The notes below the pieces were generated by a model, which saw only the letters and a list, made by a program, of their open reading frames with translations, did no database searches and was not told where the DNA came from. DNA of 20,000 nt from an uncultured virus (IMG/VR IMGVR_UViG_3300037132_000149) (taxonomy: Duplodnaviria; Heunggongvirae; Uroviricota; Caudoviricetes), in IMG/VR virus record IMGVR_UViG_3300037132_000149, positions 45,402-65,401 of that record, one strand, 5' to 3'. Shown piece by piece: positions 7,320 through 19,615 of this stretch. The position numbers were made by a program, and so were the translations under genes. How positions within the stretch are numbered: position 1 is the stretch's first letter; each line of letters opens with the position of its first letter.

Positions 7320-7769
7320 TCATATCACCTGTGCCGGGGTATACGACCCCTGCCCGTTGGTTTCACCCACCAGCGCCTCGCGGCGTTGCGCGGCCTTGCC
7401 TGAGTCGTAACTGAGGTGCACGCAGGCCGGCGCACCCTTTGAGAACTCGAGGATGACCTGGTCGAATGGCAGTTTGCTGTCCAAGCGGATCCAGTCAAAC
7501 ACCGTCTGCAGGCCGCCCGTGACTGGCACGATCACGCGAATGTCTGCCGCCGCGTTGCCGGCCTCGTACAGGTGCTGCGAATCGCAAGCGCCACCGACGC
7601 GCGCGTTGTGCCCCGGGTCGCGGTAGCCGTCGTCGACCGCGATCGACCCAAACTTCGCGCGCACCGGCTCGAGCAGTTTCTCGCAGAGCACGGTGGCGTT
7701 CGCGATCAGCCGCTGTTCGCAGCCGGCGACCCCAAGCTCGGTGTCCGCAAAATGTGGCGAGAGTTGCAT
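7320..7769 (-). CDS. Peptidase M15A-type Zn metallopeptidase, probable endolysin
   Basis: LSPHF..E, GYR....NARVGG...SQH....AADI, FDQVILEF, VHLSY: the Zn-ligand pattern of Peptidase_M15_3. Confidence 0.9.
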   Translation of the reverse strand: MQLSPHFADTELGVAGCEQRLIANATVLCEKLLEPVRAKFGSIAVDDGYRDPGHNARVGGACDSQHLYEAGNAAADIRVIVPVTGGLQTVFDWIRLDSKLPFDQVILEFSKGAPACVHLSYDSGKAAQRREALVGETNGQGSYTPAQVI

Positions 7770-7863: not shown

Positions 7864-8454
7864 TTACCTGCAGCTCTTGAGAGCCGCGCGCCGCAAAAAC
7901 ATCCTCTTTACCGCCATCGACTGCGAGGCCTGCGGATTGAAGAAATAGGTCAATCCGCTCGAGACTTCCCACGAGTTCTGCGTGCCCACTCGCAGCCAGT
8001 GAACGTCAAGCGTCGACAGTTGCAAAGCGGTATTCAGCCGGTAGGAGACGCCGCCGCCGGCCAGATAGGTGAACTGGCTGCCCGAGGCAAACGGCGAGAC
8101 GCCGAGCGCGCCCTGGGCGAATACCTGGAACGAATCGGCCGGCAGATTGGTCTTCTTGATCAGGGCGGAAATGTCAGGGGTTACCCGCACGCCGCCGAGG
8201 TAGGAGTTAAAGCCGAACGCGGGGCCAGCCACAATCTGGTGGCCCTCGATCGAGAGCGCATTGCCTTTGGACGCTCCCCAGTCGATCAGGTCGAGCGACT
8301 CGGTGGTGTGCGTTGCCACGCCCCAGGTGTTGTTATAGTGGAGTGCTGTCGCCTCGGCCGATGTCGAGAAGACGAGGCCCGACTGGGCCTGGATAGGCAG
8401 CGCGAAAACAAGAAGGCCGAGCAAGGCCCCCAGGGTTGAGATTAAACTCTTCAC
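7864..8454 (-). CDS. Secreted outer-membrane beta-barrel-like protein
   Basis: GTG start with GGGAGG SD and signal peptide (…LPIQA|Q). Alternating beta strands (FQVFAQGALGV, YLAGGGVSYRL, VSSGLTYFF) resemble 8-stranded OMP barrels. Confidence 0.65.
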   Translation of the reverse strand: MKSLISTLGALLGLLVFALPIQAQSGLVFSTSAEATALHYNNTWGVATHTTESLDLIDWGASKGNALSIEGHQIVAGPAFGFNSYLGGVRVTPDISALIKKTNLPADSFQVFAQGALGVSPFASGSQFTYLAGGGVSYRLNTALQLSTLDVHWLRVGTQNSWEVSSGLTYFFNPQASQSMAVKRMFLRRAALKSCR

Positions 8455-8468
8455 GGTGTTCCTCCCTT

Positions 8469-9266
8469 TCAATTGGTTTTCGGGACCCACGGCCGGCCCA
8501 TGTGGCCGGTCCACGAGTCGCAGGTTTCGTTTCCCCCCGCGGCGTCGTAATAGCCGTAGGGGATCATCAGGTCGCCCTCGAGACCCCAACCGGAGCCCCA
8601 GGAGTTGCGTGCAAGTTCCACGCCCTTTGTGTCGTCGTAGCCGTAGACCAGCAGCTCGTGGCCGCCGACCGGCGTCTCGAACCTCGCGGGCAGCGGCAGC
8701 AATCCAGTCTCGGCCACCTCGTCGCTCTCGATCGCCTTGTACACCGGGATGCCGATCGTCCGGCAGTAGCCGGAGGCCAGCACCGACTTCGCGGTTGCAA
8801 GGCCCTCGTCGAACAGCACGCGGTGGTAGGCGCCGATCCTGAAAGCGTATGCGGCCGCATCCATCGGCGCGGTCGGCGCCTGGCCGATCGCGGTGTCAAT
8901 AAATGGATCCGCCGGGTCCGGGCAGACGCCAAGCTGGTTGAGGACCTGAAACAGGGTGCGGCTGTCCGAGCCGTCGTCGGCAGGGAATGTGCCGTTCTTC
9001 ATGCGCTCCTGGGCGTAGAGGAAGAGCGCCGAGAACATGGCCGGGCTAACGAGTTTGGTTGGGAAGGCGGAGGTGAACGCGCCGTAAAGCCAGTCGAGCC
9101 ATCCTGCTCCTGACTGGCCTGTGCAGCTTCCGCTCGCGCCCTGGTCGCGCACCGGCCCGAGGCCTGGCTTCATGCTCACCGTGGCCGGACCCAAGGCCAG
9201 CGACCGCATCGCGAGGTGATCGCGAACGTCAAACAGATCCTTGCGAACTTTGAAGATGCGACTCAT
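8469..9266 (-). CDS. Papain-family (C1A) cysteine peptidase
   Basis: PVRDQGASGSC (oxyanion Gln, catalytic Cys), GGHELLVYGYDD (His), RNSWGSGWG (Asn). Confidence 0.92.
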   Translation of the reverse strand: MSRIFKVRKDLFDVRDHLAMRSLALGPATVSMKPGLGPVRDQGASGSCTGQSGAGWLDWLYGAFTSAFPTKLVSPAMFSALFLYAQERMKNGTFPADDGSDSRTLFQVLNQLGVCPDPADPFIDTAIGQAPTAPMDAAAYAFRIGAYHRVLFDEGLATAKSVLASGYCRTIGIPVYKAIESDEVAETGLLPLPARFETPVGGHELLVYGYDDTKGVELARNSWGSGWGLEGDLMIPYGYYDAAGGNETCDSWTGHMGRPWVPKTN

Positions 9267-9508
9267 GAATGGTTTCCCTCCTTTTGGACCAGCGAGTTCA
9301 CCCCTGGGTCAGGGGCGTCGTTTGTCATGTGGGCGACCGCGATTCTCAGGCCGCCGGCGACGGCTGCGAGAACCAGGAACGTGATCGGCACCCATTTGGG
9401 GCATCCTTGAATGGCCACCGTGCCAGCGGCTGCGGATCCGAAGGCTGTCGTAAAGAACCCGGCGTACCCGGCAAGCGTTGTAAGACTCACTCCGAAAAGT
9501 TTCTGCAT
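9263..9508 (-). CDS. Small two-TM membrane protein, holin candidate
   Basis: 81 aa with two hydrophobic stretches and a hydrophilic C-tail. ATGA-coupled to the C1 peptidase and near the endolysin. Confidence 0.55.
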   Translation of the reverse strand: MQKLFGVSLTTLAGYAGFFTTAFGSAAAGTVAIQGCPKWVPITFLVLAAVAGGLRIAVAHMTNDAPDPGVNSLVQKEGNHS

Positions 9509-9560
9509 GGCGTCTTGCGCCCCTTTCGTGGCGATTTTGGCCCTTCGATTACCGGCGCGC

Positions 9561-10100
9561 CTAGCGGTGCCAGGTGACGGTCACCGTCGGCGCTGCCAGG
9601 GTTGCTACGTTGTACTTCCCGGTCTCGAACACGTTCGGCGGCGTGCTCGGCAGCAGTGGCGGCGCCAGTGACGCGATCGTCGTCACGGCCGGCGCGCCCA
9701 GCGCGGGCGGGTAGAGCGCGATCAATTGCGCGGTCGAGGCCGGCGAAGGCGGGCCGGTCCAGGCCGGCGTGAGGTTCGTGTAAACCACCTGCACGGTAAA
9801 CGCCACGTAAACGCCGGTCGCCGGGGCCGGCCCGCTGTAGCTTGCCGTCGTGAGTGCCGTCGCTGGCGTCTGGAGCGCCGTGTACGGGCCGGGCCCCGGG
9901 TTGCCGGGCGTCGGGCAGGTGGTCGCGTTGGTGCACGTCGCCCAACTGTAGATGTACCCGCAGGTGTAGCCGGCTGGGCAGGCCGGCGCATTGTTTGAGG
10001 CGGTGACGGTGGGCGGCGGTGTCACCGGCGCCTGGCCGTGGCTGCAGCCGACGATGGCGGCGGCGAGCACGAGGGCTAGAAGTTCGTTGCGTAGTTTCAT
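9561..10100 (-). CDS. Lipoprotein with Cys-rich FN3-like domain
   Basis: Start ATG 10100 with AAGGAGG SD. MKLRNELLALVLAAAIVG|C lipobox. The domain is duplicated in the upstream gene. Confidence 0.75.
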   Translation of the reverse strand: MKLRNELLALVLAAAIVGCSHGQAPVTPPPTVTASNNAPACPAGYTCGYIYSWATCTNATTCPTPGNPGPGPYTALQTPATALTTASYSGPAPATGVYVAFTVQVVYTNLTPAWTGPPSPASTAQLIALYPPALGAPAVTTIASLAPPLLPSTPPNVFETGKYNVATLAAPTVTVTWHR

Positions 10101-10470
10101 GGAATCCTCCTTGGGTTGATGGTTACTGTTGGCTCCGGCCAAGCGACGTCGGGTGAGTTGGCTCGACCGCGGGCACCAGTTGCGCCGTTGATGCCTCCGA
10201 AGGCGGCCCGGTCCAGGCCGGGGTGAGGTTCGTGTAAACCACCTGCACGGTGCATGCGAGATAGACCCCGGTCGCCGGCGCCGAACCCGTGTGATTGGGC
10301 GACGACAGCGCCGTCGCTGGCGTCTGGATTGCCGTGTAGGGTCCGGGCCCCGGGTTGCCGGGGGTCGGGCATACGGTTGAGTTTGTGCAGGTCGCACAAC
10401 TGAAAATGTAGCCGCAGGTGTTGCCATCCGGGCACGTCGGCGCCGATGCTGAGGCCGTAATCGTGGCCGG
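9720..10470 (-). repeat. Diverged duplication of a ~100-codon domain (approx. 9720-10020 and 10175-10470)
   Basis: Shared CPTPGNPGPGPYTAxQTPATAL and TVQVVYTNLTPAWTGPPS. The DNA is near-identical over ccggtccaggccgg(c/g)gtgaggttcgtgtaaaccacctgcacggt. Confidence 0.9.
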
Positions 10471-10839
10471 CGGGTTGACCTTGACGGTCGGTTTCGAGAG
10501 GGCCGCCGGCAAGGCCGGAACTGGCACGGTCGCGGTGTTTGAATTTGAACTCGTCACGCCCTCGGCGTCCACGCTTTCGACCACGTAGTCGTAGCTCGTG
10601 GCTGGCTGCGGGGTCAGGTCTGAGTAGTTTGTCGGCACAACCAGGCCGGTCGAGATCTGCTGAAAGCTGGTCGACCCTGTCGGCGCACGATAGGCGTTGT
10701 ATCCAGCCACCGGGTCGGGCGAGCTCACGGGGGCATCCCAGGTCAGGTTTACCTTAAAACTCGTCACTTTGGCCTGGCCGGCGGCGGATCTCGCCCACGC
10801 ACATACGAGAACCAGCGCCAGCATGAAGACTCTCAGCAT
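10123..10839 (-). CDS. Secreted fibronectin type III domain protein plus Cys-rich domain
   Basis: ATG 10839 with AAGGAG SD and signal peptide (…SAAG|Q). VNLTWDAP...VAGYNAYR...YSD...YDYVVESVD...S..SN is an FN3 signature. Confidence 0.8.
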   Translation of the reverse strand: MLRVFMLALVLVCAWARSAAGQAKVTSFKVNLTWDAPVSSPDPVAGYNAYRAPTGSTSFQQISTGLVVPTNYSDLTPQPATSYDYVVESVDAEGVTSSNSNTATVPVPALPAALSKPTVKVNPPATITASASAPTCPDGNTCGYIFSCATCTNSTVCPTPGNPGPGPYTAIQTPATALSSPNHTGSAPATGVYLACTVQVVYTNLTPAWTGPPSEASTAQLVPAVEPTHPTSLGRSQQ

Positions 10840-10849
10840 CAATCGCTCC

Positions 10850-11104
10850 TTACCGAAGGTGAATAAAACCCAGCGCACTCAGCGCCACCAGGGTCGCCGG
10901 CACGCCCGCCAGAAAAACGATGAACCAGAGCACGCCCTTGGCGAAGCTCCCAAAGTTGCGACGTGTGGTGCTGAAATCCCGCCATTCGCCCACCATGCCC
11001 TCGTCTCCATCCTTGCCGAAAAGGATCGTGTCCACGGGCTTCGCCCACAGTTGCAGTTTCAAGAGCTCGCGCTGCGGGCTTTCGTGTCCCGGTTCATACG
11101 GCAT
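10850..11104 (-). CDS. Small protein with C-terminal transmembrane helix (holin/XhlA-like topology)
   Basis: 84 aa, GAGGGG SD, hydrophobic C-terminus GVLWFIVFLAGVPATLVALSALGF. Confidence 0.6.
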   Translation of the reverse strand: MPYEPGHESPQRELLKLQLWAKPVDTILFGKDGDEGMVGEWRDFSTTRRNFGSFAKGVLWFIVFLAGVPATLVALSALGFIHLR

Positions 11105-11170
11105 CTCTTCCCCTCAGTTGATCCCGTGAATGGTGAGTGTATCGCCAGCAGAGAAGTGAGTCTCGTTAGC

Positions 11171-14092
11171 TCATCGTCCGGTTACCGTGACGGTGGTTCC
11201 AACTACGAAATTGACACCCTGACCGTTCTGAATCTTGATTGCGTTAATCGCCGCAGTTGAGTCCCATTCTCCGCCAAAGTGCATTGCCATCAAATTTGAG
11301 GCATTGTTTTGACTTCCCCAACCCTCGCCCGTCACTGCTTTTGGCAATGTTGTTCCAGCATAATTCAATACAATTGCTGAAGCGCCACCTATAGTTGCAC
11401 ATCCACTACTGCAACCACTAGCAGGGAAATTGTCAATCAGATCGATGAAAGCCACACCAAAACTTTGCAGATTAAATTGTGCCCCCGCAAGGGATTTTCC
11501 GCCTTGGTAACTGTAGTTATTGCCGGTGTCTCCATTGAATTGCAACTGGACATTGGTGCCAGAGCCGCTTGCTAGCACCCCACTGAAAGAGATTTGCAAA
11601 TCAGTGCAAGTAGCAGGGATTGATGAGATTGTGATACTGGTCGCCGGTGAGCCAAGAGTAGTGGAAATCGGCGTCATGCAGGCTGCACCACCCCCGCCTG
11701 AAGGCAGGTATCCGGTGCCCGATGCGTTCCAGTTCGTTCCGTCGTAGCAGATGTGCATCGGCTTGTTGGCGGGGATGCTGCTTGAGGCGACCAGCGTCGT
11801 CGTCCAGCCGCTCGAACCCGCCACGGCCACGCTTTTCGCACCCAGCGAGTTTACGTTGACCGTCAGCCCCGTGCCAGAGTTCGCCGTTGTCGTCGAATAG
11901 ACCACGCAGTTGCCGGTCTGCGGCACAAACGTGTTGGCTACGGTGCAGCTTTGCGCGGTCCCGCTGCCGCTCGAATCGGCGCATAGCTGAGGCATGAATC
12001 CGGTAACCGGCAGGTTGGTCTCCGCCGCTCCCGAGTTCTGCGACACGCTGGTGCCCCCGAGTCCGGTGCCGCAGGTTGGGCAATCGATGACATGGCCGGT
12101 GATTCGTATCGGTGAGGTCGCCGTGTAGTCCTGAACCTCGAGGATCACGTTCGAGCCTGTCACCTTGAATGTCCCTGGGGTGTAGCCGGAATCGGGCGAC
12201 GGCGCGGCCGCGTTAAAGTTCGGACTCGATACCCCTGCCCCATTGACGTTGACACTCGTCCCCGCCACGCAACCGCTAGTGGTCAGTGCGGCCCCGGTCC
12301 CGTTCGGGCAGATAGGCGCAGTCGAGGAAGTGATGCCCTGGATCACCACATTCCCGGCGCCGTCCACGGTGATGCCATTCTCCCCGTAGATGCCCATGAA
12401 GGCGTAGTTTGAAGCCGAAGAAGAACCCACAAAGTGGAAGCCGAAGAGTGCCGCGTTATTCGTGGACTCGGCGACGCCGGTCTCAATGTTGAGGTTCGCA
12501 GTGGCAGACGCATTTGCCGCCAGCACTCTCAATTGCGGAGCAAAGATTGAGCCGCTCGCTGAATTATTGAAGCTGCCGATCGCGTGGATGTCAGAACTAT
12601 AAACTTTGAAGGGGTTCAAATCGCCGCCGCCGTCGATCTGCACGCCCTTGTATCCGCTCGTGGTGCGAATCGTGAAGACCTGCGTATCCATCGCCGCATT
12701 GAACCAGCTCTCGTAGTAGATGGCATCAGCAGCCGGAACGTGCACGAAGCCGTCGCCGGCGTTCGATACGCCCGGCCCCGCGCCGAAGTATTGCGGTCGC
12801 TTGTCGTAGGGCAGCGACGAGCCGGAGAGAATCGAACTCGACATGGTGTTCGAGGCCAGGTTCACGCCGCCGGCGCCAAAGCCGCCGTTTCCGGCCACCA
12901 TGCTCGAGTTCGTGGCGTCGTTCACCACGCGCCCGATGTCGGCAAAGATGTCCCAATACTGGCCGTTGGCCGCGGTCGCTACGCTCTTGCCCTGCAAGGG
13001 TAGCCACTGCTCGAGGGCGACGTAGGTCTGGTAGCCGGAGGTACAGATCCCGATGCCGGCCTGGTTGATGATGAAGGCGTTCGTGCTCCACTCGATCACA
13101 GAACTGCCGTCAGTGTGGATCTTTGCCCAGAGCGACTGTAGCGCGGCCTCGATCGTCGCCGCCGAGTTGCAGCCGGCGCTGCTTGCTGCCACGTCGTTCT
13201 CTTCCTGGCCCAGAATAAAGTAGGTTGGCAGCCCCGTTACCGCCTCGCTGAGGGGATGGAGAAGGCTGGTGTAGTCGGTGTTCAGCTCCTGGAGCGTCAC
13301 CGGGCTCGGAATGACGACCTTGGTCGTCCCGATCCCGTGCAGCCGGCCCTGGTTGGTCGTGTTAAAGGGGAAGTTATAGCTTGCGATGGCCGCATTGCCG
13401 CAGGTCGATGAGCAGGACCCAGTGCCCGAAAAACTGAACTTGAACTGCGTGGTGGTCAGGCCGGACGACAGAACCTGAAAGAGCGTGTACCCCGTTGCCA
13501 GCGTCGTATGGGCCGGAGCCGAGAAGGCCGTCGTCCACGCGCTCGAGAAGCGCATATTCACCCAGTCACCCGCGACCATCCCGTTGGAGCCCGTGTTGGT
13601 CACGGTGCAGGTTCCCGCGGAGCAACTAAAGGTTGCCAGCGCAAAGGTCGGCTCGATCGCGTTTCCATCGTCGTCGTTCGCGCTGTCGCCGGCGAACACA
13701 AATACCGAGTTGTTTGGGATGGGCAGGGTGTTAGCCGCGATGGTCACGTTGCCGATACAGCCGCCGGCCACGAACGGCGTGCAGCTCGTGTTCGTTCCTG
13801 GCAGGATCTCCGTGACCGCGCCGAAGGAGGAGCCGAGGCACGCCGACAGCGTCACGCATGGCGTCCACTGGCCCAGCGACGTATTGAACCCGTAAAAGGC
13901 AAAGGCCTGCGGCGTGCTTTGCGCAGGCTCCGAGGTCGATGGGTTGGTGATCTGAACCCACTGGCCGGAGGTCGGGTTCCACTGATAGAGCGCGATGGGC
14001 GTCGGCTGGAGCCCGATGACCTGGCCTCGCACACCGAGCGCAGCGCACGCGGCAAGCGCAACCAACCCGACAATCCTCGCGAGGTTTCGCAC
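11171..14092 (-). CDS. Large secreted mosaic fibre/adhesin-like protein with SGNH/GDSL-like domain
   Basis: Likely GTG start 14092 (973 aa), signal peptide …ALGVRG|Q, VFAGDS block-I motif, ENDV block-III-like motif and Gly/Ser/Thr-rich fibre segments. The C-terminal SITISSIPAT..DL.....LQFNGDTGNNY domain recalls phage fibre proteins. Confidence 0.7.
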   Translation of the reverse strand: MRNLARIVGLVALAACAALGVRGQVIGLQPTPIALYQWNPTSGQWVQITNPSTSEPAQSTPQAFAFYGFNTSLGQWTPCVTLSACLGSSFGAVTEILPGTNTSCTPFVAGGCIGNVTIAANTLPIPNNSVFVFAGDSANDDDGNAIEPTFALATFSCSAGTCTVTNTGSNGMVAGDWVNMRFSSAWTTAFSAPAHTTLATGYTLFQVLSSGLTTTQFKFSFSGTGSCSSTCGNAAIASYNFPFNTTNQGRLHGIGTTKVVIPSPVTLQELNTDYTSLLHPLSEAVTGLPTYFILGQEENDVAASSAGCNSAATIEAALQSLWAKIHTDGSSVIEWSTNAFIINQAGIGICTSGYQTYVALEQWLPLQGKSVATAANGQYWDIFADIGRVVNDATNSSMVAGNGGFGAGGVNLASNTMSSSILSGSSLPYDKRPQYFGAGPGVSNAGDGFVHVPAADAIYYESWFNAAMDTQVFTIRTTSGYKGVQIDGGGDLNPFKVYSSDIHAIGSFNNSASGSIFAPQLRVLAANASATANLNIETGVAESTNNAALFGFHFVGSSSASNYAFMGIYGENGITVDGAGNVVIQGITSSTAPICPNGTGAALTTSGCVAGTSVNVNGAGVSSPNFNAAAPSPDSGYTPGTFKVTGSNVILEVQDYTATSPIRITGHVIDCPTCGTGLGGTSVSQNSGAAETNLPVTGFMPQLCADSSGSGTAQSCTVANTFVPQTGNCVVYSTTTANSGTGLTVNVNSLGAKSVAVAGSSGWTTTLVASSSIPANKPMHICYDGTNWNASGTGYLPSGGGGAACMTPISTTLGSPATSITISSIPATCTDLQISFSGVLASGSGTNVQLQFNGDTGNNYSYQGGKSLAGAQFNLQSFGVAFIDLIDNFPASGCSSGCATIGGASAIVLNYAGTTLPKAVTGEGWGSQNNASNLMAMHFGGEWDSTAAINAIKIQNGQGVNFVVGTTVTVTGR

Positions 14093-14108
14093 GTTCCGCC
14101 CTTTCAAA

Positions 14109-14402
14109 CTACTTCGGCCTGGCCGGCGCCGGTTTGGCCGCTTTGGCCGCCGCGGCGTCTTCCGCCGCGATCCTGTCCAGCCAATGCTGGCACTCCTGAA
14201 TTGCGCCGGCGATTGCCTGGACGTTAGCGATGGCCTGCTGTTGCTGCTGTTGTAACTCGAGCAGCCGCCGCTCAATATCTTCGCGCTTGACGACCGAGGC
14301 CGCCGTGGGCGCTGCCGGCGCTGGAGCAGCCGGCTTTGAATCCTGGGCGACGGCCATCAGGCAGGCACCCAGGAGCAGTACAAATATGGCCTTGCTGTGC
14401 AT
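14109..14402 (-). CDS. Small secreted coiled-coil protein
   Basis: 97 aa, signal peptide …LMAVA|Q, heptad helix with poly-Gln, IAGAIQEC motif. Confidence 0.7.
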   Translation of the reverse strand: MHSKAIFVLLLGACLMAVAQDSKPAAPAPAAPTAASVVKREDIERRLLELQQQQQQAIANVQAIAGAIQECQHWLDRIAAEDAAAAKAAKPAPARPK

Positions 14403-14413
14403 TTCTGCCGATC

Positions 14414-15598
14414 CTAGCTGGCGCCGGCGTAGACCCGCACGTAGGCGTCGGACCCGTTGATCTTCACCTTGATGTAGCCGGTAACTGCCGAGGACGCACC
14501 CGAGCCGGAGATCAGGTAGCCGCCGCCGTTGTCGGTCAGATCCGCAAAGTACGCAGCCTTTGAGTAGCCATAGATCAAGTCATGGAAGATCGTCGCCGTG
14601 GTGTTGGTGACGACGATCCCGTCGCAGAACGCGCAACTCACCGAAGGGCCAGTCGCCCCGGCGTCGCTCCACAAGCCGCCAACGTGGGACGCAGAGGTCA
14701 GCGTCGCGGCTGAAAGATCGAGTTGCCCGAGCACGCCGAAATCCCAGGTTGAGCCGCTTACGGTCCCGGCCAGCACAAACTTGCCCTGCGTGCCGTAGAG
14801 GTAGCCGCTCGAGGCCGTGGTGCCTACCGGGATGGTTGCCAGCCCGCGCACGCCGGTCAGGTTGTTCCCGCCGTTCGCATAGCTCGCGTTCGATGTGGTC
14901 ACGGATCCAACAATCGAGCGCACGTTGCCGGGCGCGGCTGCGGTCACCGTTGCGGCGGCCTGTGGGCCGGTTACGCCCAGCACCCCGCCCGAGCAGGCCT
15001 AGAACGTCCACGGGTTGGTGGTTACGTCGACCACGCCTGTCTTCGCGCTGCAGGTGGCCGCGGCGAGGATCGTCGCCGCTGTCACCGCCGAGTCCTGCGA
15101 GTGTATGTTTGCGACCAGCTTGTACCACTCGGGGCTCAGAACGACGGTCATCAGCGCAGGTTCATGCGTGCCGCCGACCGCGTTCAAAGCCTCCTGGAGG
15201 CCGCCCGTGCCAGACTGCAATGTGAATGTGGTGTGAGGGTTCACCGGCGCGATGTTGACGCCGCAGCGCAGCTCGCTCGGCACCAGGTAGCTCGACGGGG
15301 TCAGCACCTCGCTCGTGGCCTGGTTCTGGTCCTGAATCAGGATCGGAGCCAGGGCCAGCGTGTCGGCGAAGGCATAGAACGTCGGGCTGTCGGCAAAGTC
15401 CAGTTGCGTGACCTGGCACCCGTTTACATTCGAGAAGGTGTACGTGTTGGGCTTCTGGCCTTGAATAGCCCAGCGCCCGTAGTTATCCGCATACACCCAG
15501 GGCGGCGCCCCGGCCGGATTGAACCCCTGAGCGAATACACACGCCGTCGCCGTCAGCGCCAGCACCAAAACCGCGAGAAGCCCGGTAAAGGTCTTCAT
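14414..15598 (-). pseudogene. Secreted protein gene interrupted by one in-frame TAG at 14999-15001 (nonsense allele, error or readthrough)
   Basis: ORFs 14999..15598 and 14414..14983 are in the same frame: …VTTNPWTF*ACSGGVLGVTG…. The stop aligns with Tyr in the paralog, and the downstream part has no convincing SD. Confidence 0.65.
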
Positions 15599-15643
15599 GG
15601 TTGCCTCGTTCCTTGTGGAGATTGGCCGTGCGCCCCTCTGCCA

Positions 15644-16651
15644 TCAATGGCAGAGGTAGGTCCAGGAGTACCCGGCGGTCGAGCTCGTGAGCCCGGCGGC
15701 GGGCGATGTCAGGGTTGCGACCGCAGGCGGCCCGATCACGGACGAGGCCACGGTAACGCCGGGGGCCACGCCGGTTGACGTGTAAACGCAGGTCGGGGCG
15801 TACTGGTACCCGCTCGTCGGCGAGCCGGCGGTGCCGGGCGAGGGCCAGGTCAGCGTAAAGATGGGATCGGCGGCCGTTGGAACCGCAGAGCCGGTCCTGA
15901 GAGTCACAGTCCCGGTCACGCTGTTGCCAGCGATCGCGATCGTCGGCGAGGTGCCGGCGCCCGTGCCGGCCGCGACCGTGGGAGGCGTTGCGCTCAACAG
16001 GTAGTATTGCGTGCCCGAGGCGTAGCCGCCCGAGCCCTTCCACACGTACTGCGTTGGCGGCGCCGTGGTGATGTCGACCACGATGGCGAAGACGCTGCCC
16101 TTGGCTGCCGCAATGATCGTCGCCGGCGTGGTCGAGGCCAGGGTCGAGTTCTGGGTTGAGATCCCGGTCACCAGCTTGTACCACTCGGGAGATAGGATCA
16201 CTTCCATCGCGTTCGCGGCCGTGAAGCCGCCCACCGAGTTGATCGCCTCCTGGAGACCGCCTGTGCCTGATTGCAGCGTGAAGGTCGTATGGTTGAGCGA
16301 CGGCGCGATGTCCACGCCGCAAGAGAGCTGCGTCGGCGTCAAGTAGGTCGACGGCGTCGCGAGCTCGCTGTTGGCTGAGTTCTGGTCGGCGATCAGCACC
16401 GGAGCCAGCGCCACAGCGTTCGAGAACGCATAGAACGTCGGCCGGTTTTGAAAGTTGAGCTGCGTAATCTGGCAGCCGTTGACGTTCGAGAACGTGTAGG
16501 TGTTTGGCGACTGGCCTTGAATCGCCCAGCGGCCGTAGTTATCGGCGTATACGACGGGGGGCGAGCCGGCCGGGTTGAATCCCTGAGCGAGGACGAGAGC
16601 CGGCGTCAGCGACGCCAGCAGGATGACTGCGAGTGCGAGGAACTTCCGCAT
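15644..16651 (-). CDS. Secreted hypothetical protein (SGTGGLQEA-motif domain plus Thr/Gly-rich C-terminal beta domain)
   Basis: ATG 16651 with AGGAG SD and signal peptide …ALVLA|Q. The N-terminal ~200 aa are paralogous to 14999..15598. Confidence 0.8.
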   Translation of the reverse strand: MRKFLALAVILLASLTPALVLAQGFNPAGSPPVVYADNYGRWAIQGQSPNTYTFSNVNGCQITQLNFQNRPTFYAFSNAVALAPVLIADQNSANSELATPSTYLTPTQLSCGVDIAPSLNHTTFTLQSGTGGLQEAINSVGGFTAANAMEVILSPEWYKLVTGISTQNSTLASTTPATIIAAAKGSVFAIVVDITTAPPTQYVWKGSGGYASGTQYYLLSATPPTVAAGTGAGTSPTIAIAGNSVTGTVTLRTGSAVPTAADPIFTLTWPSPGTAGSPTSGYQYAPTCVYTSTGVAPGVTVASSVIGPPAVATLTSPAAGLTSSTAGYSWTYLCH

Positions 16652-16670
16652 GTCGATTCTCCTGGTGACT

Positions 16671-16686
16671 GGTCGCCGCGGCGACC
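16671..16686. promoter_or_regulatory. 16-bp perfect palindrome GGTCGCCGCGGCGACC, 19 nt upstream of ATG 16651
   Basis: Seen directly. A sister copy lies at 2432-2447. Confidence 0.45.
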
Positions 16687-16732
16687 TGAGTCCTATTGTG
16701 GAATTGGCCTTACGAAGGGCCCTGCTCAAAAC

Positions 16733-19447
16733 CTACTCTACAATCTCCGACCAGCTCGAGATCGCCGGCGTGCCGCCCGAACCGCTCAAAGTTGCCGCGG
16801 TTGCGGAGAAGGTCTCGCCGGGGAGAACTTTGAAACTGATCTGCGATACGCCGGCGCAGATGTTATACACGCCGTTGCCCGCCTGGCCGGCGCCGTCGAT
16901 CGTGTACTCGAGCGCTGCCGCGTAGCCCGTGCACGAGCCGGTCACGGTCATGCCGACGAACTCCTCGACAGGCACCGCGCCGCTGTTGGTGTACGTGGTG
17001 CCCGACACATAGGTCGAGCCGCCGACGCAGGCAACCGACAGGCAGTCCTTGCGCACGCCGGTCACGGCATTAGTGCCATCGTTACAGACCGAATTGACCG
17101 GAGTTCCCACGGTCGAGAGGTTGTTCTGCTGGCAGGCGATCCCGGTCGAGAACAGATAAACCCCGTAAGGCGTCCCGCCGGCAAAGCCGGTCGAGAGGAT
17201 GGTGTTGTGCCGGACGACGCTCTGGACGCCTGCGGCCGCGAGGCCGGTCGCGTAGATAGCTGCCTGGTAGACGGTCGACGAAAACGCCAGGTGATTGTCG
17301 ATGATCGAGACGGGGTTGAGGACGCCCCAGGTCGATCCCTCCTCGAGCTGAATCGCCGCGACCGGCGTGCCACTCATGGCCGTCATCGTCTCGGCGTTGT
17401 CATGGACAGAGACGGCCGTGCCAGGCTGCACGTAAATGCCGGCGCCAAAGTTGCCGGTGATGGTGTTCGGGCCCACATTGGCTGAGTCCACGCAGGTCGA
17501 GGTCTTGCCGTTGCACGAGATGCTGATTCCTACGCGGCCCTCGGCGACTGTCGTATCGCGCGTGAGTGTGTTGCCCGAGATCGTCGCCGAGATATTGGTG
17601 TTGGCGCTGGGTCCGCCCAGCGCCTCGATTCCGCTCATCGCGAAATTTGAGATGGTGTTGCCCGTGTAGCTCGAGCGAAGTCCGTCGGTCTCCATGCCCT
17701 GGCCCACGCCCACCATCACGTTGTCCGAGTAGGTCGCGTCGCTCGTCCAGCCCGTGCCGATGCCACTGAAGGCGTCCTGGGTGAGCAGGTTCGAGCTCAC
17801 CTCGAGGCCGATCACGCCCCACGGCTCGATCGCATCCGAATAGAAATTGGACAGGTTCATGTGCTTCACCTGGACGTTGTTCGCGCACCAGATGGCCACG
17901 CCCACATTGTTGAGCGGGATGTTGGTGGTCGGCTCCCCGTTGTTGTTCCAGATTAGGGAGTTGTAGCTGCCCACCGAACTCATCGAAAAATCGTGCAGGT
18001 TCACGTTCGAGATCAGCGTCGTCACCGCCCGGCCGGTCGTCACGTCCTGGGGGTTTGAGACGGGCGACAGCGTGCAGCCGGGCGAGTAGATCTGCAGGCC
18101 CGCCGCGTAGATGCCGCTGATCGCCGTGCCGAACGTGGGATGGCCCGAGACCAGGACCGGGTCGAAGAAGAGTCGACCGCCGCCGGTCATCTCGAAGTTC
18201 GAGACCGCGACCGAAAGGTAGTCGGTGTTGATCGTCGAGTCGGTCGACGCGATGCGGCAGATGTGGCCGGCGGGGATGACGACCTGCCCGCCCAGCGCCG
18301 GATCCAGTGTATTAAGCAGCGCCTGGATGGCAGCGCGATCGTTGTGGCCGTTGCCGGTCGTCCCGTTCGAATCGCAGAACGCGCCGAAGTCGAGCACGTT
18401 CAGACCGGATCCGCAGGAGCCGATCAGGTCGAAATAGTTTCCGTCCGAGATCGGGCAACTGCCGGCCGCGCCGGCCTGCCCGTTGATCAGGTAGCCTTGC
18501 CGCGCGTTGACCGCGCCCGGCGTGCCCGAGCCTTCGACGTCGACGCCCCATGCGGGCAGCTTGGTGCCCACGCCCAGCGCGCCCAGGTTCACGATGTTAT
18601 AAGCCGTCATGTCGATCGGTCCTGAGATCGACTGAACGTTGTGATTGTAGGGGACCGTCAGCACCGGAATCGGGTAGGTGACCTGGCCGTTGTAGTAGGG
18701 GATTCCATTCGACAGGTTGTAGGCCGACCCCGGCCCCAGCAACTGCCAGAGTTGCGGATATTGAAACAGCACGTTGCCGCTCGCGTCGACCAGCGAAACC
18801 TTGTAGCCGGTGCCGGTCGGCCAGCCCGCATCGTTCGCCACCTGCCGGCAGGCGCTCGAGTTCATGATGGGGGGGTTCGCGCCTGTCGCCAGCGGCACGG
18901 CCTGGGTGAACTGCGCGGTCGGCGTCACGGTCTGGCCCTGGTAGGTCTCGGCGCCGGGCGCCGAGCCAATGTAGACATCCATGCCCACAGCGGAAGGTGG
19001 CCCGGTTCCTGCTGGCGGGAGCACATGGAGCTCGCCGACGCTGGTCAGTTGCTGGGCCACCTCCACGCTCGGCAGTGTCTGGCCGCCGAACTGGTCGTAC
19101 CAGGTGAACTTCACGTAGTAATTGCCGACCGGGAGCGTGCCCACAAACTGCGGGCTCACTATGGGCGGCGAATAAGGGTTGCCGATCCCCACCACCGAGC
19201 CGTTGACGTCGCTCGAGCATTGGCCGCCGTTGACGACGACGCCGGTGCCCCCGACAAAGAAGACCTGGCTGGGCTGAAAGGAGAGCGTCGCGTTCTTGGC
19301 TGGGATCCCGCTCGAGCTGAAAAGTGTGCCCTGGAGAATGACGTATGGAGCCACGTACTGCGCCGGAGCCGGCAACCCTAGAAACAGGGCAGCGGTGGCC
19401 AGGGTCAGCCACCGCTGGGTTGCCTGTGGTTTTTGGAGCAATTCCAT
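16733..19447 (-). CDS. Tailspike/depolymerase-like protein with pectate-lyase-3 right-handed beta-helix and signal peptide
   Basis: LNVLDFGAFCD…DRAAIQALLN…GGQVVIPAG is the Pectate_lyase_3 N-cap, followed by Asn-ladder repeats (SSNLL, SDNVM, TGNTI, SGNTL, HDNA). The N-terminus is signal-like (…GLPAPA|Q). The start is uncertain: ATG 19447 is preferred because the upstream extension overlaps the terminator. Confidence 0.8.
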   Translation of the reverse strand: MELLQKPQATQRWLTLATAALFLGLPAPAQYVAPYVILQGTLFSSSGIPAKNATLSFQPSQVFFVGGTGVVVNGGQCSSDVNGSVVGIGNPYSPPIVSPQFVGTLPVGNYYVKFTWYDQFGGQTLPSVEVAQQLTSVGELHVLPPAGTGPPSAVGMDVYIGSAPGAETYQGQTVTPTAQFTQAVPLATGANPPIMNSSACRQVANDAGWPTGTGYKVSLVDASGNVLFQYPQLWQLLGPGSAYNLSNGIPYYNGQVTYPIPVLTVPYNHNVQSISGPIDMTAYNIVNLGALGVGTKLPAWGVDVEGSGTPGAVNARQGYLINGQAGAAGSCPISDGNYFDLIGSCGSGLNVLDFGAFCDSNGTTGNGHNDRAAIQALLNTLDPALGGQVVIPAGHICRIASTDSTINTDYLSVAVSNFEMTGGGRLFFDPVLVSGHPTFGTAISGIYAAGLQIYSPGCTLSPVSNPQDVTTGRAVTTLISNVNLHDFSMSSVGSYNSLIWNNNGEPTTNIPLNNVGVAIWCANNVQVKHMNLSNFYSDAIEPWGVIGLEVSSNLLTQDAFSGIGTGWTSDATYSDNVMVGVGQGMETDGLRSSYTGNTISNFAMSGIEALGGPSANTNISATISGNTLTRDTTVAEGRVGISISCNGKTSTCVDSANVGPNTITGNFGAGIYVQPGTAVSVHDNAETMTAMSGTPVAAIQLEEGSTWGVLNPVSIIDNHLAFSSTVYQAAIYATGLAAAGVQSVVRHNTILSTGFAGGTPYGVYLFSTGIACQQNNLSTVGTPVNSVCNDGTNAVTGVRKDCLSVACVGGSTYVSGTTYTNSGAVPVEEFVGMTVTGSCTGYAAALEYTIDGAGQAGNGVYNICAGVSQISFKVLPGETFSATAATLSGSGGTPAISSWSEIVE

Positions 19448-19502: not shown

Positions 19503-19533
19503 AAAAAAACGCGGGCAAGCCATGCCTGCCCGC
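19503..19533 (-). terminator. Rho-independent terminator
   Basis: Minus strand GCGGGCAGGC-ATG-GCTTGCCCGC-G-TTTTTTT. Confidence 0.88.
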
Positions 19534-19582
19534 AATCAGAATCAGTTGCCTTGGTTGTCCCCGGATGCGCTCCGGAGCCATC
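19503..19582 (-). ncRNA. Putative ~80-nt leader/small RNA between promoter and terminator
   Basis: Bounded by the promoter at 19587-19615 and the terminator. Contains a 5' hairpin CUCCGGA-GCGCA-UCCGGGG (19559-19577). Confidence 0.45.
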
Positions 19583-19586
19583 AGCG

Positions 19587-19615
19587 ACTGTAAGGTAGTC
19601 CATCGTCTCTGTCAA
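19587..19615 (-). promoter_or_regulatory. sigma70-like promoter
   Basis: TTGACA (19615-19610), 17-nt spacer, TACAGT (19592-19587). Confidence 0.7.

What the first reader, a model, noticed from the sequence alone, without database searches (positions are those of the whole stretch)
7864..19447. Phage late operon whose spike/fibre-like proteins carry Sec signal peptides: possible periplasmic folding or assembly of virion appendages
Seen: eight genes co-oriented with portal, scaffold and capsid encode export signals. They are the tailspike (19447), two paralogs (16651, 15598), coiled-coil (14402), SGNH/fibre (14092), FN3 (10839), lipoprotein (10100) and beta-barrel (8454). Several are rich in closely spaced Cys (SCSAGTC, SCSSTC, DCPTC, GCSSGC, SCNGKTSTC, DCLSVAC). 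Established: tailspikes and fibres of model tailed phages fold and assemble in the cytoplasm without signal peptides, and disulfides form in the periplasm. Inference: receptor-binding or decoration proteins are exported, oxidatively folded and join particles at or after membrane rupture. Alternatively they remodel the host surface or capsule.
Basis: partly seen in the sequence, partly recalled or inferred. Interest (0 to 1): 0.85.

Follow-up and report, generated by a model that had tools for sequence, protein, structure and literature searches.

The report
Phage spike proteins carrying export signals
A family of peat-soil phages that infect Acidobacteria puts secretion signals on all of its tail-spike-like, host-recognition-type proteins, which suggests these parts are exported and folded outside the cytoplasm, something not described for any studied tailed phage.

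Summary
The window is the last 20 kb of a complete 65.4-kb temperate phage genome. It has a terminal repeat, an integrase, a large terminase and a P22-like portal. Its hosts are probably Acidobacteria (Terracidiphilus).

Only 2 of 55 genes outside the block do.

- **Conservation.** The signal is conserved in function but not in sequence: 101 of 113 spike homologues, 115 of 119 homologues of the paralog, and 123 of 144 further representatives of a family with 1,313 cluster representatives.
- **Receptor-binding architecture.** The N-terminal modules are conserved, the C-terminal cassettes are swapped (beta-helix, K1-lyase_C, Gp53-like tail-fibre tip), and the proteins are rich in cysteine.
- **Cassette exchange.** Compared with a second complete genome that is 97.5-99.4% identical over the collinear late genes, almost the only late-region DNA (≥100 bp) without a match is these cassettes.
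- **A culturable parallel.** The cultured acidobacterial podovirus Tunturi 1 is unrelated in sequence but has a similar signal-bearing cluster, which includes its annotated tail spike. Tunturi 3 and 4 do not.

Whether the proteins join virions is untested. My odds are 0.45 for virion appendages that mature in the periplasm and 0.33 for exported non-virion enzymes or adhesins. The SGNH, FN3 and beta-barrel labels are not confirmed. One paralog is split by an in-frame TAG.

The parts
19624..19980 (-). 118-aa gene (p124) just upstream of the block. No signal peptide. Homologues sit upstream of the spike gene in related phages. Possible late-gene regulator (inference only).
   Evidence: no family hit (weak NCBIfam hit below cut-off)
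19510..19615 (-). Promoter-like site (TTGACA-17-TACAGT, 19615-19587), followed by a strong terminator-like hairpin with a T-run (19534-19510). Both lie between p124 and the spike ATG.
   Evidence: Consensus scans only; function not shown.
16733..19447 (-). 904-aa tailspike-like protein. Predicted signal peptide covers residues 1-29 (cleavage APA|QY). A conserved beta-rich N-terminal module spans about residues 30-345. A right-handed beta-helix spans about 346-775, followed by a variable C-terminus.
15644..16651 (-). 335-aa paralog 1 ('par1'). Signal peptide (VLA|QG), a conserved N-terminal module and a C-terminal beta-sandwich. Conserved Cys at 60/111 and 288/334.
14999..15598 (-). 199-aa paralog 2. 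Signal peptide plus the same N-terminal module. It ends at an in-frame TAG (14999-15001).
14414..14983 (-). 189-aa ORF in the same frame. It is the C-terminal part of the paralog-2 gene. A single 396-aa ORF in locus L022 and a 623-aa ORF in L006 span the break.
14109..14402 (-). 97-aa protein with a signal-like N-terminus and a Gln-rich coiled-coil-like middle. Candidates: periplasmic assembly factor or i-spanin-like protein.
   Evidence: signal-bearing homologue in L022; weak DUF7310 match
11171..14092 (-). 973-aa Cys-rich protein (22 Cys in the mature part). Signal peptide, then a conserved N-terminal module of about 95-118 aa, then a variable body. SGNH fold not confirmed.
10850..11104 (-). 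84-aa ORF without a signal peptide. Unknown.
10123..10839 (-). 238-aa protein. Signal peptide, an Ig/FN3-like N-terminal domain, and a C-terminal domain paralogous to the lipoprotein.
9561..10100 (-). 179-aa predicted lipoprotein (lipobox IVG|C, Ser at +2, Pro-rich start).
   Evidence: The orthologue in the relative is interrupted by an IS200/IS605 element.
9263..9508 (-). 81-aa protein with two hydrophobic segments. Holin candidate.
   Evidence: sequence; position next to lysis genes; no family hit
8469..9266 (-). 265-aa papain-like peptidase. No signal peptide.
   Evidence: phrog_16701 E 5e-10; PF00112 just below its cut-off
7864..8454 (-). 196-aa protein with a clear signal peptide (IQA|QS). 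Putative small outer-membrane protein. Only 33% identical in the otherwise near-identical relative.
   Evidence: Barrel fold not tested.
7320..7769 (-). 149-aa M15-family endolysin. No signal peptide.
   Evidence: PF08291 E 2.7e-9; phrog_894 E 1.3e-23
3346..5907 (-). 853-aa portal candidate with an inserted zinc ribbon.
   Evidence: atlas score 0.97 to P22_portal clusters

Best explanation
**What the block is.** It is the receptor-binding and depolymerase module of a temperate podovirus with a P22-like portal that infects Acidobacteria. Its proteins are made as Sec precursors (one as a lipoprotein precursor) and exported to the periplasm.

**Proposed mechanism.**
1. The signal is cleaved, which leaves an N-terminal Gln.
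2. The Cys-rich proteins fold and oligomerise under oxidising conditions.
3. Capsids with tail hubs assemble in the cytoplasm.
4. After the holin opens the inner membrane, the exported spikes and fibres dock through their conserved N-terminal modules. There are three kinds of module: about 315 aa on the spike, about 190 aa on the par1 family, and about 100 aa on the 973-aa protein.
5. The swapped C-terminal cassettes set host specificity.

**Shown here.**
- The signals are present and conserved.
- The proteins have receptor-binding-type architecture.
- Cassettes are exchanged between near-identical genomes.
- The genes lie at the head of the late-gene block, behind a promoter-like site and a terminator-like hairpin.

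**Inferred, not shown.** Export, cleavage, disulfides, and above all incorporation into virions.
For: 1. **Signals.** 8 of 12 block genes are positive against 2 of 55 elsewhere. Positives number 101 of 113 spike homologues, 115 of 119 par1 homologues, and 123 of 144 further representatives. The signal sequences vary freely, while the mature N-terminus is conserved from the cleavage site onward.
2. **Related loci.** In 25 related viral loci, 67 of 137 genes in the block are signal-positive against 7 of 145 outside it (p = 2e-18). This is an undercount caused by wrongly called starts.
3. **Receptor-binding character.**
   - The beta-helix scores Z 30.1 to the Dettilon tailspike, 29.5 to the K5A lyase and 25.5 to the HK620 tailspike.
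   - In the precomputed Pfam column, homologues carry Gp53-like_C tail-fibre tips (18 of 113), K1-lyase_C (5 of 113) and Beta_helix (3 of 113) (confirmed on 9 proteins).
   - The par1 N-module heads proteins of up to 2196 aa. It matches uncharacterised proteins of uncultured Caudovirales in BFVD at E 3e-7 and 4e-6.
4. **Specificity cassettes.** Genome G001 (65,655 bp, terminal repeat, CheckV completeness 100%) is 97.5-99.4% identical across C1 19742-51853 (TerL to portal). Downstream of the portal, the unmatched segments are window 7871-8472, 9780-9947, 10138-10549, 11114-13788, 14339-14962, 16727-18524 and 19374-19496, all inside the block, plus 6453-6673 among the small genes between portal and endolysin. 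The one other fibre-like candidate, a 357-aa Gly-rich protein, is 100% identical between the two.
5. **Cysteines.** Cys density is 1.9% against 0.86%. The capsid candidate has 0 Cys of 437 residues and the giant protein has 1 of 3683. Conserved Cys pairs: C77/C200 in the spike; C60/C111 and C288/C334 in par1.
6. **Late-operon position.** The block follows a promoter-like site and a terminator-like hairpin. It runs into the lysis and head genes on the same strand.
7. **Independent lineage.** Cultured Tunturiibacter podovirus Tunturi 1 has signal-like N-termini at the annotated starts of gp12, gp13, gp14 (annotated 'tail spike protein'), gp16 and gp17 (annotated 'virion structural protein', Beta_helix). 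These proteins carry 2-32 Cys each. Its portal, capsid, adaptor-like gp30 and gp31 have no such signal.
Against: - No solved or studied tailed phage is known to export its spikes. This statement is recalled; the paper searches found no case. One preprint states that the P22 tailspike has no signal peptide because it needs no export (passage seen).
- Export separates these proteins from cytoplasmic particles until lysis, and the time window for docking could be short.
- Virion association was not tested and cannot be tested here.
- The same architecture (signal, conserved beta-rich N-domain, variable tips) exists in Bdellovibrio MAT fibres, which are displayed on the cell and are not virion parts.
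- The best matches of the beta-helix are secreted bacterial enzymes: AlgE4 at Z 33.9 and RbmB at Z 32.4.
- par1 folds as a confident monomeric globule (pTM 0.81), not an obvious fibre.
- The par1 N-module's matches to phage tail parts are within noise (best Z 6.2).
- The block also holds a lipoprotein and a putative outer-membrane protein, which fit an envelope-directed module.
- Tunturi 3 and 4 infect the same host genus with signal-free tail fibres: 0 of 22 and 2 of 23 proteins are positive, and the two positives are small proteins near the endolysin. Export is therefore not forced by the host.
- The signal calls come from my own heuristic, not SignalP.
Confidence: 0.45

Rival explanations
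1. The large exported proteins are not virion parts. They are phage-encoded polysaccharide depolymerases and adhesins, released into the periplasm or displayed on the infected or lysogenic cell. They might be docked through their conserved N-modules to the phage's own lipoprotein or outer-membrane protein. Their role would be to clear or remodel capsule and exopolysaccharide: for progeny escape, to destroy receptors (superinfection exclusion), or to change adhesion. The virion would recognise its host with other proteins.
For: - Bdellovibrio MAT fibres have the same build and are cell-displayed (passages).
- WceF is a bacterial exported trimer with a tailspike fold that cuts the cell's own exopolysaccharide (passages).
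- The top fold matches are secreted or periplasmic enzymes: AlgE4, RbmB, and AlgG at Z 23.1.
- A lipoprotein and a putative outer-membrane protein lie in the same block, and the latter is itself hypervariable (33% identity in G001).
- A 357-aa Gly-rich protein without a signal could be the true fibre.
Against: - A free enzyme has no obvious need for three conserved N-terminal module families that track the phage lineage as closely as the portal does. Spike N-module identity is 35-84%; portal identity is 29-64%.
- If host polysaccharide type drives the cassette swaps, the virion's own receptor-binding protein should swap too. Outside the block, only a 221-bp segment among small genes (window 6453-6673) and a 315-bp segment next to the capsid gene (C1 44228-44542) differ in the late region.
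- About 12 kb, or 18% of the genome, sits at the head of the late-gene block.
- Some homologues end in a Pfam domain named after a phage tail-fibre tip.
Confidence: 0.33
2. The hydrophobic N-termini are uncleaved signal anchors. The proteins stay tethered to the inner membrane facing the periplasm. There they act as exclusion or lysis-timing factors, or as a membrane-bound assembly platform.
For: - The small coiled-coil protein (97 aa) looks like an i-spanin: an N-terminal hydrophobic segment followed by a coiled coil.
- The relative's spike has a non-canonical start with a long or uncharged n-region.
- Four family representatives carry an extra 85-185-aa domain ahead of the hydrophobic segment, which would make it an internal anchor.
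Against: - Nearly all family members have small residues at -3 and -1 followed by Gln, at a median position of 26. That is the pattern of cleaved signals.
- The extra N-terminal domain is a separate small gene in three related loci, so the fusions may be gene-call artefacts.
Confidence: 0.08
3. The proteins are auxiliary metabolic genes. They would be secreted carbohydrate-active enzymes that help the lysogen degrade plant or microbial polymers in peat.
For: - The beta-helix fold is shared with pectinases and alginate enzymes.
- A CBM_4_9 domain occurs in 1 of 30 long family members scanned.
- Signal peptides were predicted on 5% (3261 of 64,678) of prophage CAZymes in a global survey (passage).
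- The phage occurs in about 20 peat metagenome runs.
Against: - No CAZy-type catalytic family was found in any window protein.
- Conserved N-modules and cassette swapping are not features of metabolic genes.
- The genes sit inside the late structural and lysis gene block, not in a moron position with their own terminators.
Confidence: 0.07
4. The signals are an artefact of start-codon choice or of chance hydrophobic N-termini.
For: - The spike ORF can be extended to a GTG at 19627, and the 973-aa ORF to a TTG at 14275.
- My heuristic gives weak false positives, such as the scaffold candidate and the 128-aa protein at core scores 2.0-2.4.
Against: - Independent database gene calls place the signal at the annotated N-terminus in 91 of 113 and 112 of 119 homologues.
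- Shine-Dalgarno motifs and an upstream terminator fit the short starts.
- The clustering has p = 3e-6 in this genome and 2e-18 across relatives.
- The same test is negative on all annotated tail fibres of Tunturi 3 and 4.
Confidence: 0.02

Closest known systems
Podovirus tailspikes and tail fibres (P22 gp9, HK620, Sf6, CBA120 TSPs, K1/K5 lyases)
   Same: - Right-handed beta-helix body (Z 25-30).
- A conserved N-terminal module with exchangeable C-terminal specificity cassettes.
- Tail-fibre and tailspike C-terminal Pfam domains in homologues.
- Encoded in the late gene block of a phage with a P22-like portal.
   Different: - Every member here carries an N-terminal Sec-type signal, and the proteins are Cys-rich. 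Known tailspikes have no signal and fold in the cytoplasm (recalled; also stated for P22 in the preprint seen).
- The N-terminal modules show no detectable sequence or clear fold relation to known particle-binding domains.
Bdellovibrio bacteriovorus MAT fibres (PMC10769870)
   Same: A signal peptide is followed at once by a conserved beta-rich N-terminal domain, then long bodies and diverse swapped tips. The relation to phage adhesins is noted by the authors (passages).
   Different: - MAT genes are chromosomal genes of a predatory bacterium, and the fibres are shown on the cell surface.
- The genes here lie in complete phage genomes, between a late promoter-like site and the lysis and head genes.
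- Homology between the N-domains was not tested, because no MAT sequence was at hand.
Pantoea stewartii WceF (PMC7949094) and Vibrio cholerae RbmB
   Same: Both are exported beta-helix enzymes with a tailspike-like fold that act on exopolysaccharide. RbmB is among the best fold matches (Z 32.4). WceF even keeps a P22-like head-binding domain (passages).
   Different: - Both are bacterial genes in polysaccharide or biofilm loci.
- WceF uses a Tat signal, not a Sec signal.
- Neither has multi-gene cassettes or a phage context.
Envelope-directed phage accessory proteins: Rz/Rz1 spanins, lambda Lom and Bor, T5 Llp, Cor (all recalled from knowledge, none fetched here)
   Same: The lipoprotein, the small coiled-coil protein and the putative outer-membrane protein have the signal types and sizes expected of such proteins. 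They lie near the holin and endolysin genes.
   Different: - The coiled-coil gene is about 4 kb from the lipoprotein gene, not nested in it or adjacent to it.
- The lipoprotein is 161 aa after processing and shares a domain with the FN3-like protein.
- This class does not account for the five large receptor-binding-like proteins.
Tunturiibacter phage Tunturi 1 gp12-gp17 (GenBank PP887698; Microbiome 2025, PMC11924767)
   Same: - It is a cultured podovirus of Acidobacteriaceae with a genome of about 63 kb.
- It has a cluster of about 12.6 kb of large Cys-rich proteins with signal-like N-termini.
- The cluster includes the annotated tail spike and a Beta_helix 'virion structural protein', and it lies next to the lysis genes.
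   Different: - No sequence similarity was detected to the window's proteins by BLAST or by profiles of the spike, par1 and portal families.
- The paper's main text does not mention signal peptides or virion proteomics (term searches of the main text; supplements not read).

Membership tests
Sec (type I) signal peptide | A positively charged n-region, an uncharged hydrophobic core of about 9-20 residues, small residues at -3 and -1, all at the extreme N-terminus | tested here: met
   My own heuristic, not SignalP. It is met for 7 window proteins, counting the 973-aa protein from its GTG start at 14092. The spike is weaker (core score 2.06-2.23), but 101 of 113 of its homologues are positive.
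Sec (type I) signal peptide | Sequence varies but physico-chemical pattern is conserved across homologues, with conservation starting at the mature N-terminus | tested here: met
   Positives: 101 of 113, 115 of 119 and 123 of 144.
Sec (type I) signal peptide | Actual export and cleavage by signal peptidase I | not testable with these tools
   This needs fusions, N-terminal sequencing or proteomics.
Bacterial lipoprotein (type II signal) | A lipobox [LVI][ASTVI][GAS]C at the end of the hydrophobic core | tested here: met
   The window 10100 gene reads MKLRNELLALVLAAAIVG|C. Lipobox-bearing genes sit at the same position in relatives (L006 20805-21317; L008). This is a pattern match only.
Phage tailspike (beta-helix depolymerase, receptor-binding protein) | Right-handed parallel beta-helix body | tested here: met
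   AF2 model with mean pLDDT 71.5. VIA-align over residues 346-775 gives Z 33.9 to 20 against AlgE4, RbmB and many tailspikes. Foldseek E 9e-8 to 1e-3.
Phage tailspike (beta-helix depolymerase, receptor-binding protein) | Conserved N-terminal particle-binding module with an exchangeable distal part | tested here: inconclusive
   The modular pattern is met. That the N-module binds a particle is not shown. It was not folded alone, and no match to known head-binding domains was seen.
Phage tailspike (beta-helix depolymerase, receptor-binding protein) | Homotrimer | not tested
   Only a monomer was folded. The low-confidence stretch at 254-318 could be a trimeric neck.
Phage tailspike (beta-helix depolymerase, receptor-binding protein) | Component of the virion | not testable with these tools
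   No cultured relative exists: no portal match and no par1 match among 50,697 GenBank phage records. The spike matches only a 110-aa domain in 2 Bacillus phages.
Phage tailspike (beta-helix depolymerase, receptor-binding protein) | Cytoplasmic synthesis without an export signal (as in all studied members; recalled) | tested here: not met
   The signal is present and conserved.
Bdellovibrio MAT-like fibre | Signal peptide, then a conserved beta-rich N-domain of about 130 aa, then variable tips | tested here: met
   The architecture is seen in par1-family members of up to 2196 aa. The comparison rests on passages of PMC10769870.
Bdellovibrio MAT-like fibre | Homology of the N-domain to the MAT N-domain | not tested
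SGNH/GDSL hydrolase (973-aa protein) | Blocks I (GDS), III (GxND) and V (DxxH) | tested here: not met
   Only GDS at residue 135 is present; no GxND or DxxH. No Pfam or NCBIfam hit. The atlas gives only a weak lead: score 0.75 to a cluster in which 13% of members carry Lipase_GDSL_2.
Two-component spanin (Rz/Rz1-like) | An outer-membrane lipoprotein gene nested in or adjacent to a gene for an N-terminally anchored coiled-coil protein, in the lysis cassette | tested here: inconclusive
   A lipoprotein lies next to the holin candidate. The coiled-coil candidate is about 4 kb upstream and has a cleavage-type site. No family match.
P22-like portal | Similarity to PF16510 members | tested here: inconclusive
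   No Pfam or PHROG hit, and the PDB profile search matches only a zinc ribbon. The atlas scores 0.97, with 204-210 shared features, to clusters in which 11-52% of members carry P22_portal.

The most novel reading that the evidence does not exclude
Some tailed phages have a periplasmic branch of virion assembly.
- Their receptor-binding spikes and fibres are Sec-exported, signal-cleaved and disulfide-stabilised outside the cytoplasm.
- These proteins are added to cytoplasmically built particles only after the holin breaches the inner membrane.
- The trait has arisen, or been kept, in at least two podovirus lineages of Acidobacteriaceae that are unrelated in sequence: this family and Tunturi 1/2.
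- The par1-type N-module alone defines more than 1,300 protein clusters.
Probability: 0.42. Interest if true: 0.92.

Novelty: new variant of a known kind. Interest (0 to 1): 0.8.

Why it matters
In textbook accounts, tailed-phage assembly is entirely cytoplasmic, and a missing signal peptide is even used as a mark of phage origin for fibre-like proteins (passage).

**If the virion reading is right.**
- The order and the compartment of virion assembly are not universal.
- Oxidative folding becomes available to phage adhesins.
- The step between holin action and outer-membrane rupture becomes an assembly stage.

**If the rival is right.** Soil phages commonly carry large, rapidly swapping sets of exported spike-like enzymes that remodel the host surface. 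That matters for three things:
- how 'auxiliary' carbohydrate-active genes of soil viruses are read;
- host-range prediction from tail genes;
- mining of depolymerases.

**Scale and testability.**
- The family is large: 1,313 representatives at 50% identity.
- It is widespread in peat: about 20 runs hold the block.
- A cultured phage, Tunturi 1, makes the question testable at the bench now.

Tried and rejected
- **PDB sequence searches.** The spike and the 973-aa protein gave 0 hits. The portal gave only zinc-ribbon noise.
- **Family scans.** Pfam, PHROGs and NCBIfam on the eight proteins gave nothing, apart from weak Ig-like PHROG hits for the FN3-like protein and sub-threshold hits for the coiled-coil protein.
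- **par1 fold.** Foldseek against the PDB gave no match at E <= 0.001. VIA-align wide gave a best Z of 6.2 (phage GP4 portal-tail complex, the K1 lyase N-part, the Chi tail tip, the JBD30 baseplate). This is within the tool's stated noise level, so it is not used as evidence.
- **Complex prediction.** Spike N-module (residues 30-345) with mature par1: verdict 'no answer', score 0.00. This says nothing either way.
- **RNA evidence of expression.** No RNA holder is listed among 22 runs. Contigs cannot rank genes by depth.
- **Suppressor tRNA for the in-frame TAG.** None found. The only tRNA call is a tRNA-Leu(gag) inside the scaffold candidate on the opposite strand, probably spurious.
- **N4-like reading.** I first considered this because of the giant 3,693-aa ORF. 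I dropped it: the ORF carries RelA/SpoT-, 2'-5' ligase- and GGDEF-like domains, not polymerase matches, and the portal is P22-like.
- **Homology between Tunturi 1 gp11-gp37 and the window families.** None by hmmsearch with the A1, A3 and A4 profiles or by blastp at E <= 0.1, apart from two chance-level rows.
- **Accession PP885684.** Not in the collection. The correct numbers were taken from Table 1 of the paper.
- **Literature.** Searches for signal-bearing tailspikes or fibres in phages found no description of this. The library lacks most subscription journals, so this is not proof that it is unpublished.

Full report
**What the window is**

The window is the last 20 kb of a single 65,401-bp contig (G000:C1:45402-65401). 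The contig has 64% G+C and a 127-bp direct terminal repeat.

Outside the window the contig encodes:
- a tyrosine integrase (phrog_1, E 7.5e-55);
- a GroEL (phrog_5725, E 6e-108);
- a large terminase (phrog_979, E 6.5e-23);
- a 3,693-aa protein with RelA/SpoT-, 2'-5' RNA-ligase- and GGDEF-like stretches.

All genes from C1 65401 down to 19767 lie on the minus strand.

The 853-aa 'portal' has no Pfam, PHROG or PDB sequence match. Its nearest protein-atlas clusters score 0.97, share 204-210 features, and carry P22_portal on 11-52% of their members. The 'scaffold' and 'capsid' labels rest on position only.

Named homologues of the block proteins come from Terracidiphilus and Acidobacteria metagenome bins. 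About 20 peat metagenome runs hold the block. I read this as a complete temperate podovirus-type phage of Acidobacteriaceae.

**The observation**

- Shine-Dalgarno-like motifs precede six of the eight starts.
- A strong terminator-like hairpin (19534-19510) lies between the upstream gene and the spike's ATG at 19447, which fits the short reading.

SignalP was not available, so I scored N-termini by charge, hydrophobic core and the -3/-1 rule.
- Eight of 12 genes in the block are positive.
- At a comparable core strength, 2 of 55 genes elsewhere in the genome are positive (Fisher p = 3e-6).
- One block gene has a lipobox (IVG|C).
- The quoted Cys motifs are all there.
- The mature exported proteins hold 1.9% Cys against 0.86% for the rest. 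The capsid candidate has none in 437 residues, and the giant protein has one in 3,683.

**Are the signals real?**

The strongest evidence is comparative.

| Family | Hits | Signal-positive | Notes |
|---|---|---|---|
| Spike | 113 database homologues sharing the first ~330 residues | 101 of 113 (91 at the annotated start, 10 after an internal start) | The 12 negatives are mostly calls that begin inside the hydrophobic core or later |
| par1 (335-aa paralog) | 119 homologues | 115 of 119 | The 4 negatives are truncated |
| par1 profile against 1.84 billion representatives | 1,313 at E <= 0.001 (359 at <= 1e-10) | 123 of 144 new sequences | Among the best 150, the module sits at the extreme N-terminus of proteins of up to 2,196 aa |

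The signal sequences differ freely. Conservation begins exactly at the predicted cleavage site, A-x-A | Q-[YF]-[VT]-[AS]-P-Y-V.

In 25 related viral loci, 67 of 137 block genes are positive against 7 of 145 genes outside (p = 2e-18). Inspection showed that many 'negatives' are start miscalls by my gene caller.

As a control matched for host, the same test calls no annotated tail fibre positive in the cultured acidobacterial phages Tunturi 3 and 4. There, 0 of 22 and 2 of 23 proteins are positive, and the two positives are small proteins beside the endolysin.

**What the proteins are**

*Spike.* The AF2 model (50-row alignment, mean pLDDT 71.5) has four parts:
- an N-terminal helix, which is the signal;
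- well-predicted beta domains at residues 35-250;
- a low-confidence stretch at 254-318;
- a right-handed beta-helix at about 346-775.

The helix aligns at Z 33.9 to AlgE4 and 32.4 to the RbmB polysaccharide lyase. It aligns at 30.1 to the Dettilon tailspike, 29.5 to the K5A lyase and 25.5 to HK620 (Foldseek agrees).

In homologues the same N-module is joined to other ends. These are Gp53-like_C tail-fibre tips (18 of 113 in the precomputed column), K1-lyase_C (5), Beta_helix (3) and Gly_rich_2 (2).

*par1.* It folds confidently (pLDDT 89, pTM 0.81) into an N-terminal alpha/beta module plus a C-terminal beta-sandwich.
- It has no significant PDB match.
- It matches uncharacterised proteins of uncultured Caudovirales in BFVD at E 3e-7 and 4e-6.
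- In relatives the spike gene is followed by one to four genes that carry the par1 N-module on bodies of 233-1,479 aa, each with its own signal.

*Conserved cysteines.* Pairs are conserved: C77/C200 in the spike; C60/C111 and C288/C334 in par1.

*Labels I could not confirm.* These are SGNH for the 973-aa protein (only a GDS motif), FN3 (weak PHROG hits) and the beta-barrel (not tested).

**Cassette exchange**

A second complete genome, G001, has 65,655 bp, a terminal repeat and a CheckV completeness of 100%.
- It is 97.5-99.4% identical to G000 across C1 19742-51853, from the terminase to the portal.
- Downstream of the portal, no blastn match is found for window 7871-8472 (the putative outer-membrane protein), 9780-9947, 10138-10549, 11114-13788 (body of the 973-aa protein), 14339-14962, 16727-18524 (spike body) and 19374-19496 (spike signal region), nor for 6453-6673 among the small genes outside the block.
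- G001 carries other signal-bearing genes in these places: ORFs of 359, 628, 844 and 170 aa.
- The only other fibre-like candidate, a 357-aa Gly-rich protein next to the 1,056-aa nozzle-like protein, is 100% identical in both genomes.
- Contigs from four further peat runs break off or switch at the same junctions: 12624, 14338-14963 and 15831.

This is the pattern expected of host-specificity determinants.

**Mechanism and odds**

I consider it well supported (about 0.85) that the block encodes exported proteins of receptor-binding or depolymerase type, and that this is a conserved trait of a large phage family.

For what they do, I commit to periplasmic maturation followed by docking onto particles after holin action. 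My confidence is 0.45. The reasons:
- The N-modules are conserved along the phage lineage about as well as the portal.
- Apart from two short segments (221 and 315 bp), nothing else in the late region varies between the two near-identical genomes.
- The genome shows no other convincing spike or fibre.
- Last-step addition of spikes or fibres to finished particles is possible in vitro for P22 and T4 (recalled knowledge).

The main rival (0.33) is a non-virion set of exported enzymes and adhesins that acts on the host envelope or exopolysaccharide. It is supported by the cell-displayed MAT fibres of Bdellovibrio, which have the same build. It is also supported by exported bacterial proteins with a tailspike fold (WceF, RbmB), and by the lipoprotein and putative outer-membrane protein in the block.

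The lipoprotein, the small coiled-coil protein and the putative outer-membrane protein may be ordinary spanin-, Bor/Lom- or exclusion-type proteins under either reading.

**An independent, culturable case**

A literature search led to the Tunturi phages of Tunturiibacter, a genus of Acidobacteriaceae (PMC11924767). I saw passages and Table 1 of that paper, not the supplements.

In the GenBank record of the podovirus Tunturi 1, five proteins have signal-like N-termini at their annotated starts and carry 2-32 Cys each:
- gp12 (1,190 aa);
- gp13 (675 aa);
- gp14 (919 aa, annotated 'tail spike protein');
- gp16 (149 aa);
- gp17 (1,184 aa, annotated 'virion structural protein'; Beta_helix and CHB_HEX_C_1 domains).

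The portal, the capsid, the SU10-adaptor-like gp30 and the 1,307-aa gp31 have no such signal.

These proteins show no detectable similarity to the window's families. The trait therefore occurs in two lineages that are unrelated in sequence. It is not forced by the host, because Tunturi 3 and 4 lack it.

Term searches of the paper's main text found no mention of signal peptides or mass spectrometry. Proteomics appears only as future work.

**Novelty**

Six full-text searches found no description of tailed-phage spikes or fibres with export signals. Two papers treat the absence of a signal as normal for phage proteins.

The library misses most subscription journals, so prior description cannot be excluded.

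I rate the finding a new variant of a known kind: phage receptor-binding proteins, here Sec-exported. It would be categorically new if virion incorporation is shown.

Noticed in passing
window 14999-15001 (minus strand), genes 14999-15598 and 14414-14983: An in-frame TAG splits one paralog gene into a 199-aa and a 189-aa ORF. The relative G001 has TAC (Tyr) at that codon, a single-base difference. Locus L022 has one 396-aa ORF that aligns end to end with the two pieces. A contig from another peat run covers the site with 0 differences, so the stop is not peculiar to this assembly. No suppressor tRNA was found in the genome.
   Followed up: yes
L004 4653-6258 (record G001): An IS200/IS605-type element interrupts the orthologue of the window's lipoprotein gene. 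It consists of a 145-aa TnpA-like ORF and a 396-aa TnpB-like ORF. The genome is otherwise complete, which suggests the lipoprotein is dispensable. The element names come from reading the sequences, not from a family scan.
   Followed up: partly
window 19510-19615 (minus strand): A promoter-like site is followed about 50 nt later by a strong terminator-like hairpin, directly ahead of the ~45 kb of co-oriented late genes and just after a conserved 118-aa gene. The layout recalls lambda PR'-tR' with Q antitermination (recalled knowledge). No test was made.
   Followed up: no
G000:C1:22106-33187 (minus strand; L002 3106-14187): A giant 3,693-aa ORF carries RelA/SpoT-like, 2'-5' RNA-ligase-like and GGDEF-like stretches and a match to part of phrog_21. 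It has a single Cys in 3,683 residues. It is possibly a multi-domain ejected protein.
   Followed up: partly
G000:C1:7958-10059 (plus strand): A phage-encoded GroEL is preceded, with overlapping stop and start, by a 115-aa protein with a clear signal peptide (MRNGIFTFAGCLVLTVALVAA|Q). Both are conserved in G001.
   Followed up: no
window 3346-5907, portal residues 222-247: The portal candidate carries an inserted four-Cys zinc-ribbon-like motif (C222, C225, C244, C247). It is invariant in 5 aligned homologues and is the only part that matches PDB sequences.
   Followed up: partly
window 11001-12000: G+C drops to 54.6%, against about 64% elsewhere. The drop lies inside the variable body of the 973-aa protein and is consistent with recent acquisition of that cassette.
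   Followed up: no
window 7864-8454 versus L004 7640-8257: The putative outer-membrane protein is only 33% identical between two genomes whose flanking genes are 97-99% identical. It is therefore itself a swapped cassette.
   Followed up: partly
proteins P0281, P0314, P0320, P0325; loci L022 5537-6100, L025 11197-11574, L030 9073-9495: In some relatives a small signal-free gene lies just upstream of the par1-type gene. In four database proteins it is fused in frame ahead of the hydrophobic segment. This is either a gene-call artefact or a genuine membrane-anchored form.
   Followed up: partly
window 2809-2900 (plus strand): ARAGORN calls a tRNA-Leu(gag) inside the scaffold candidate on the opposite strand. 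It is probably a false positive.
   Followed up: no
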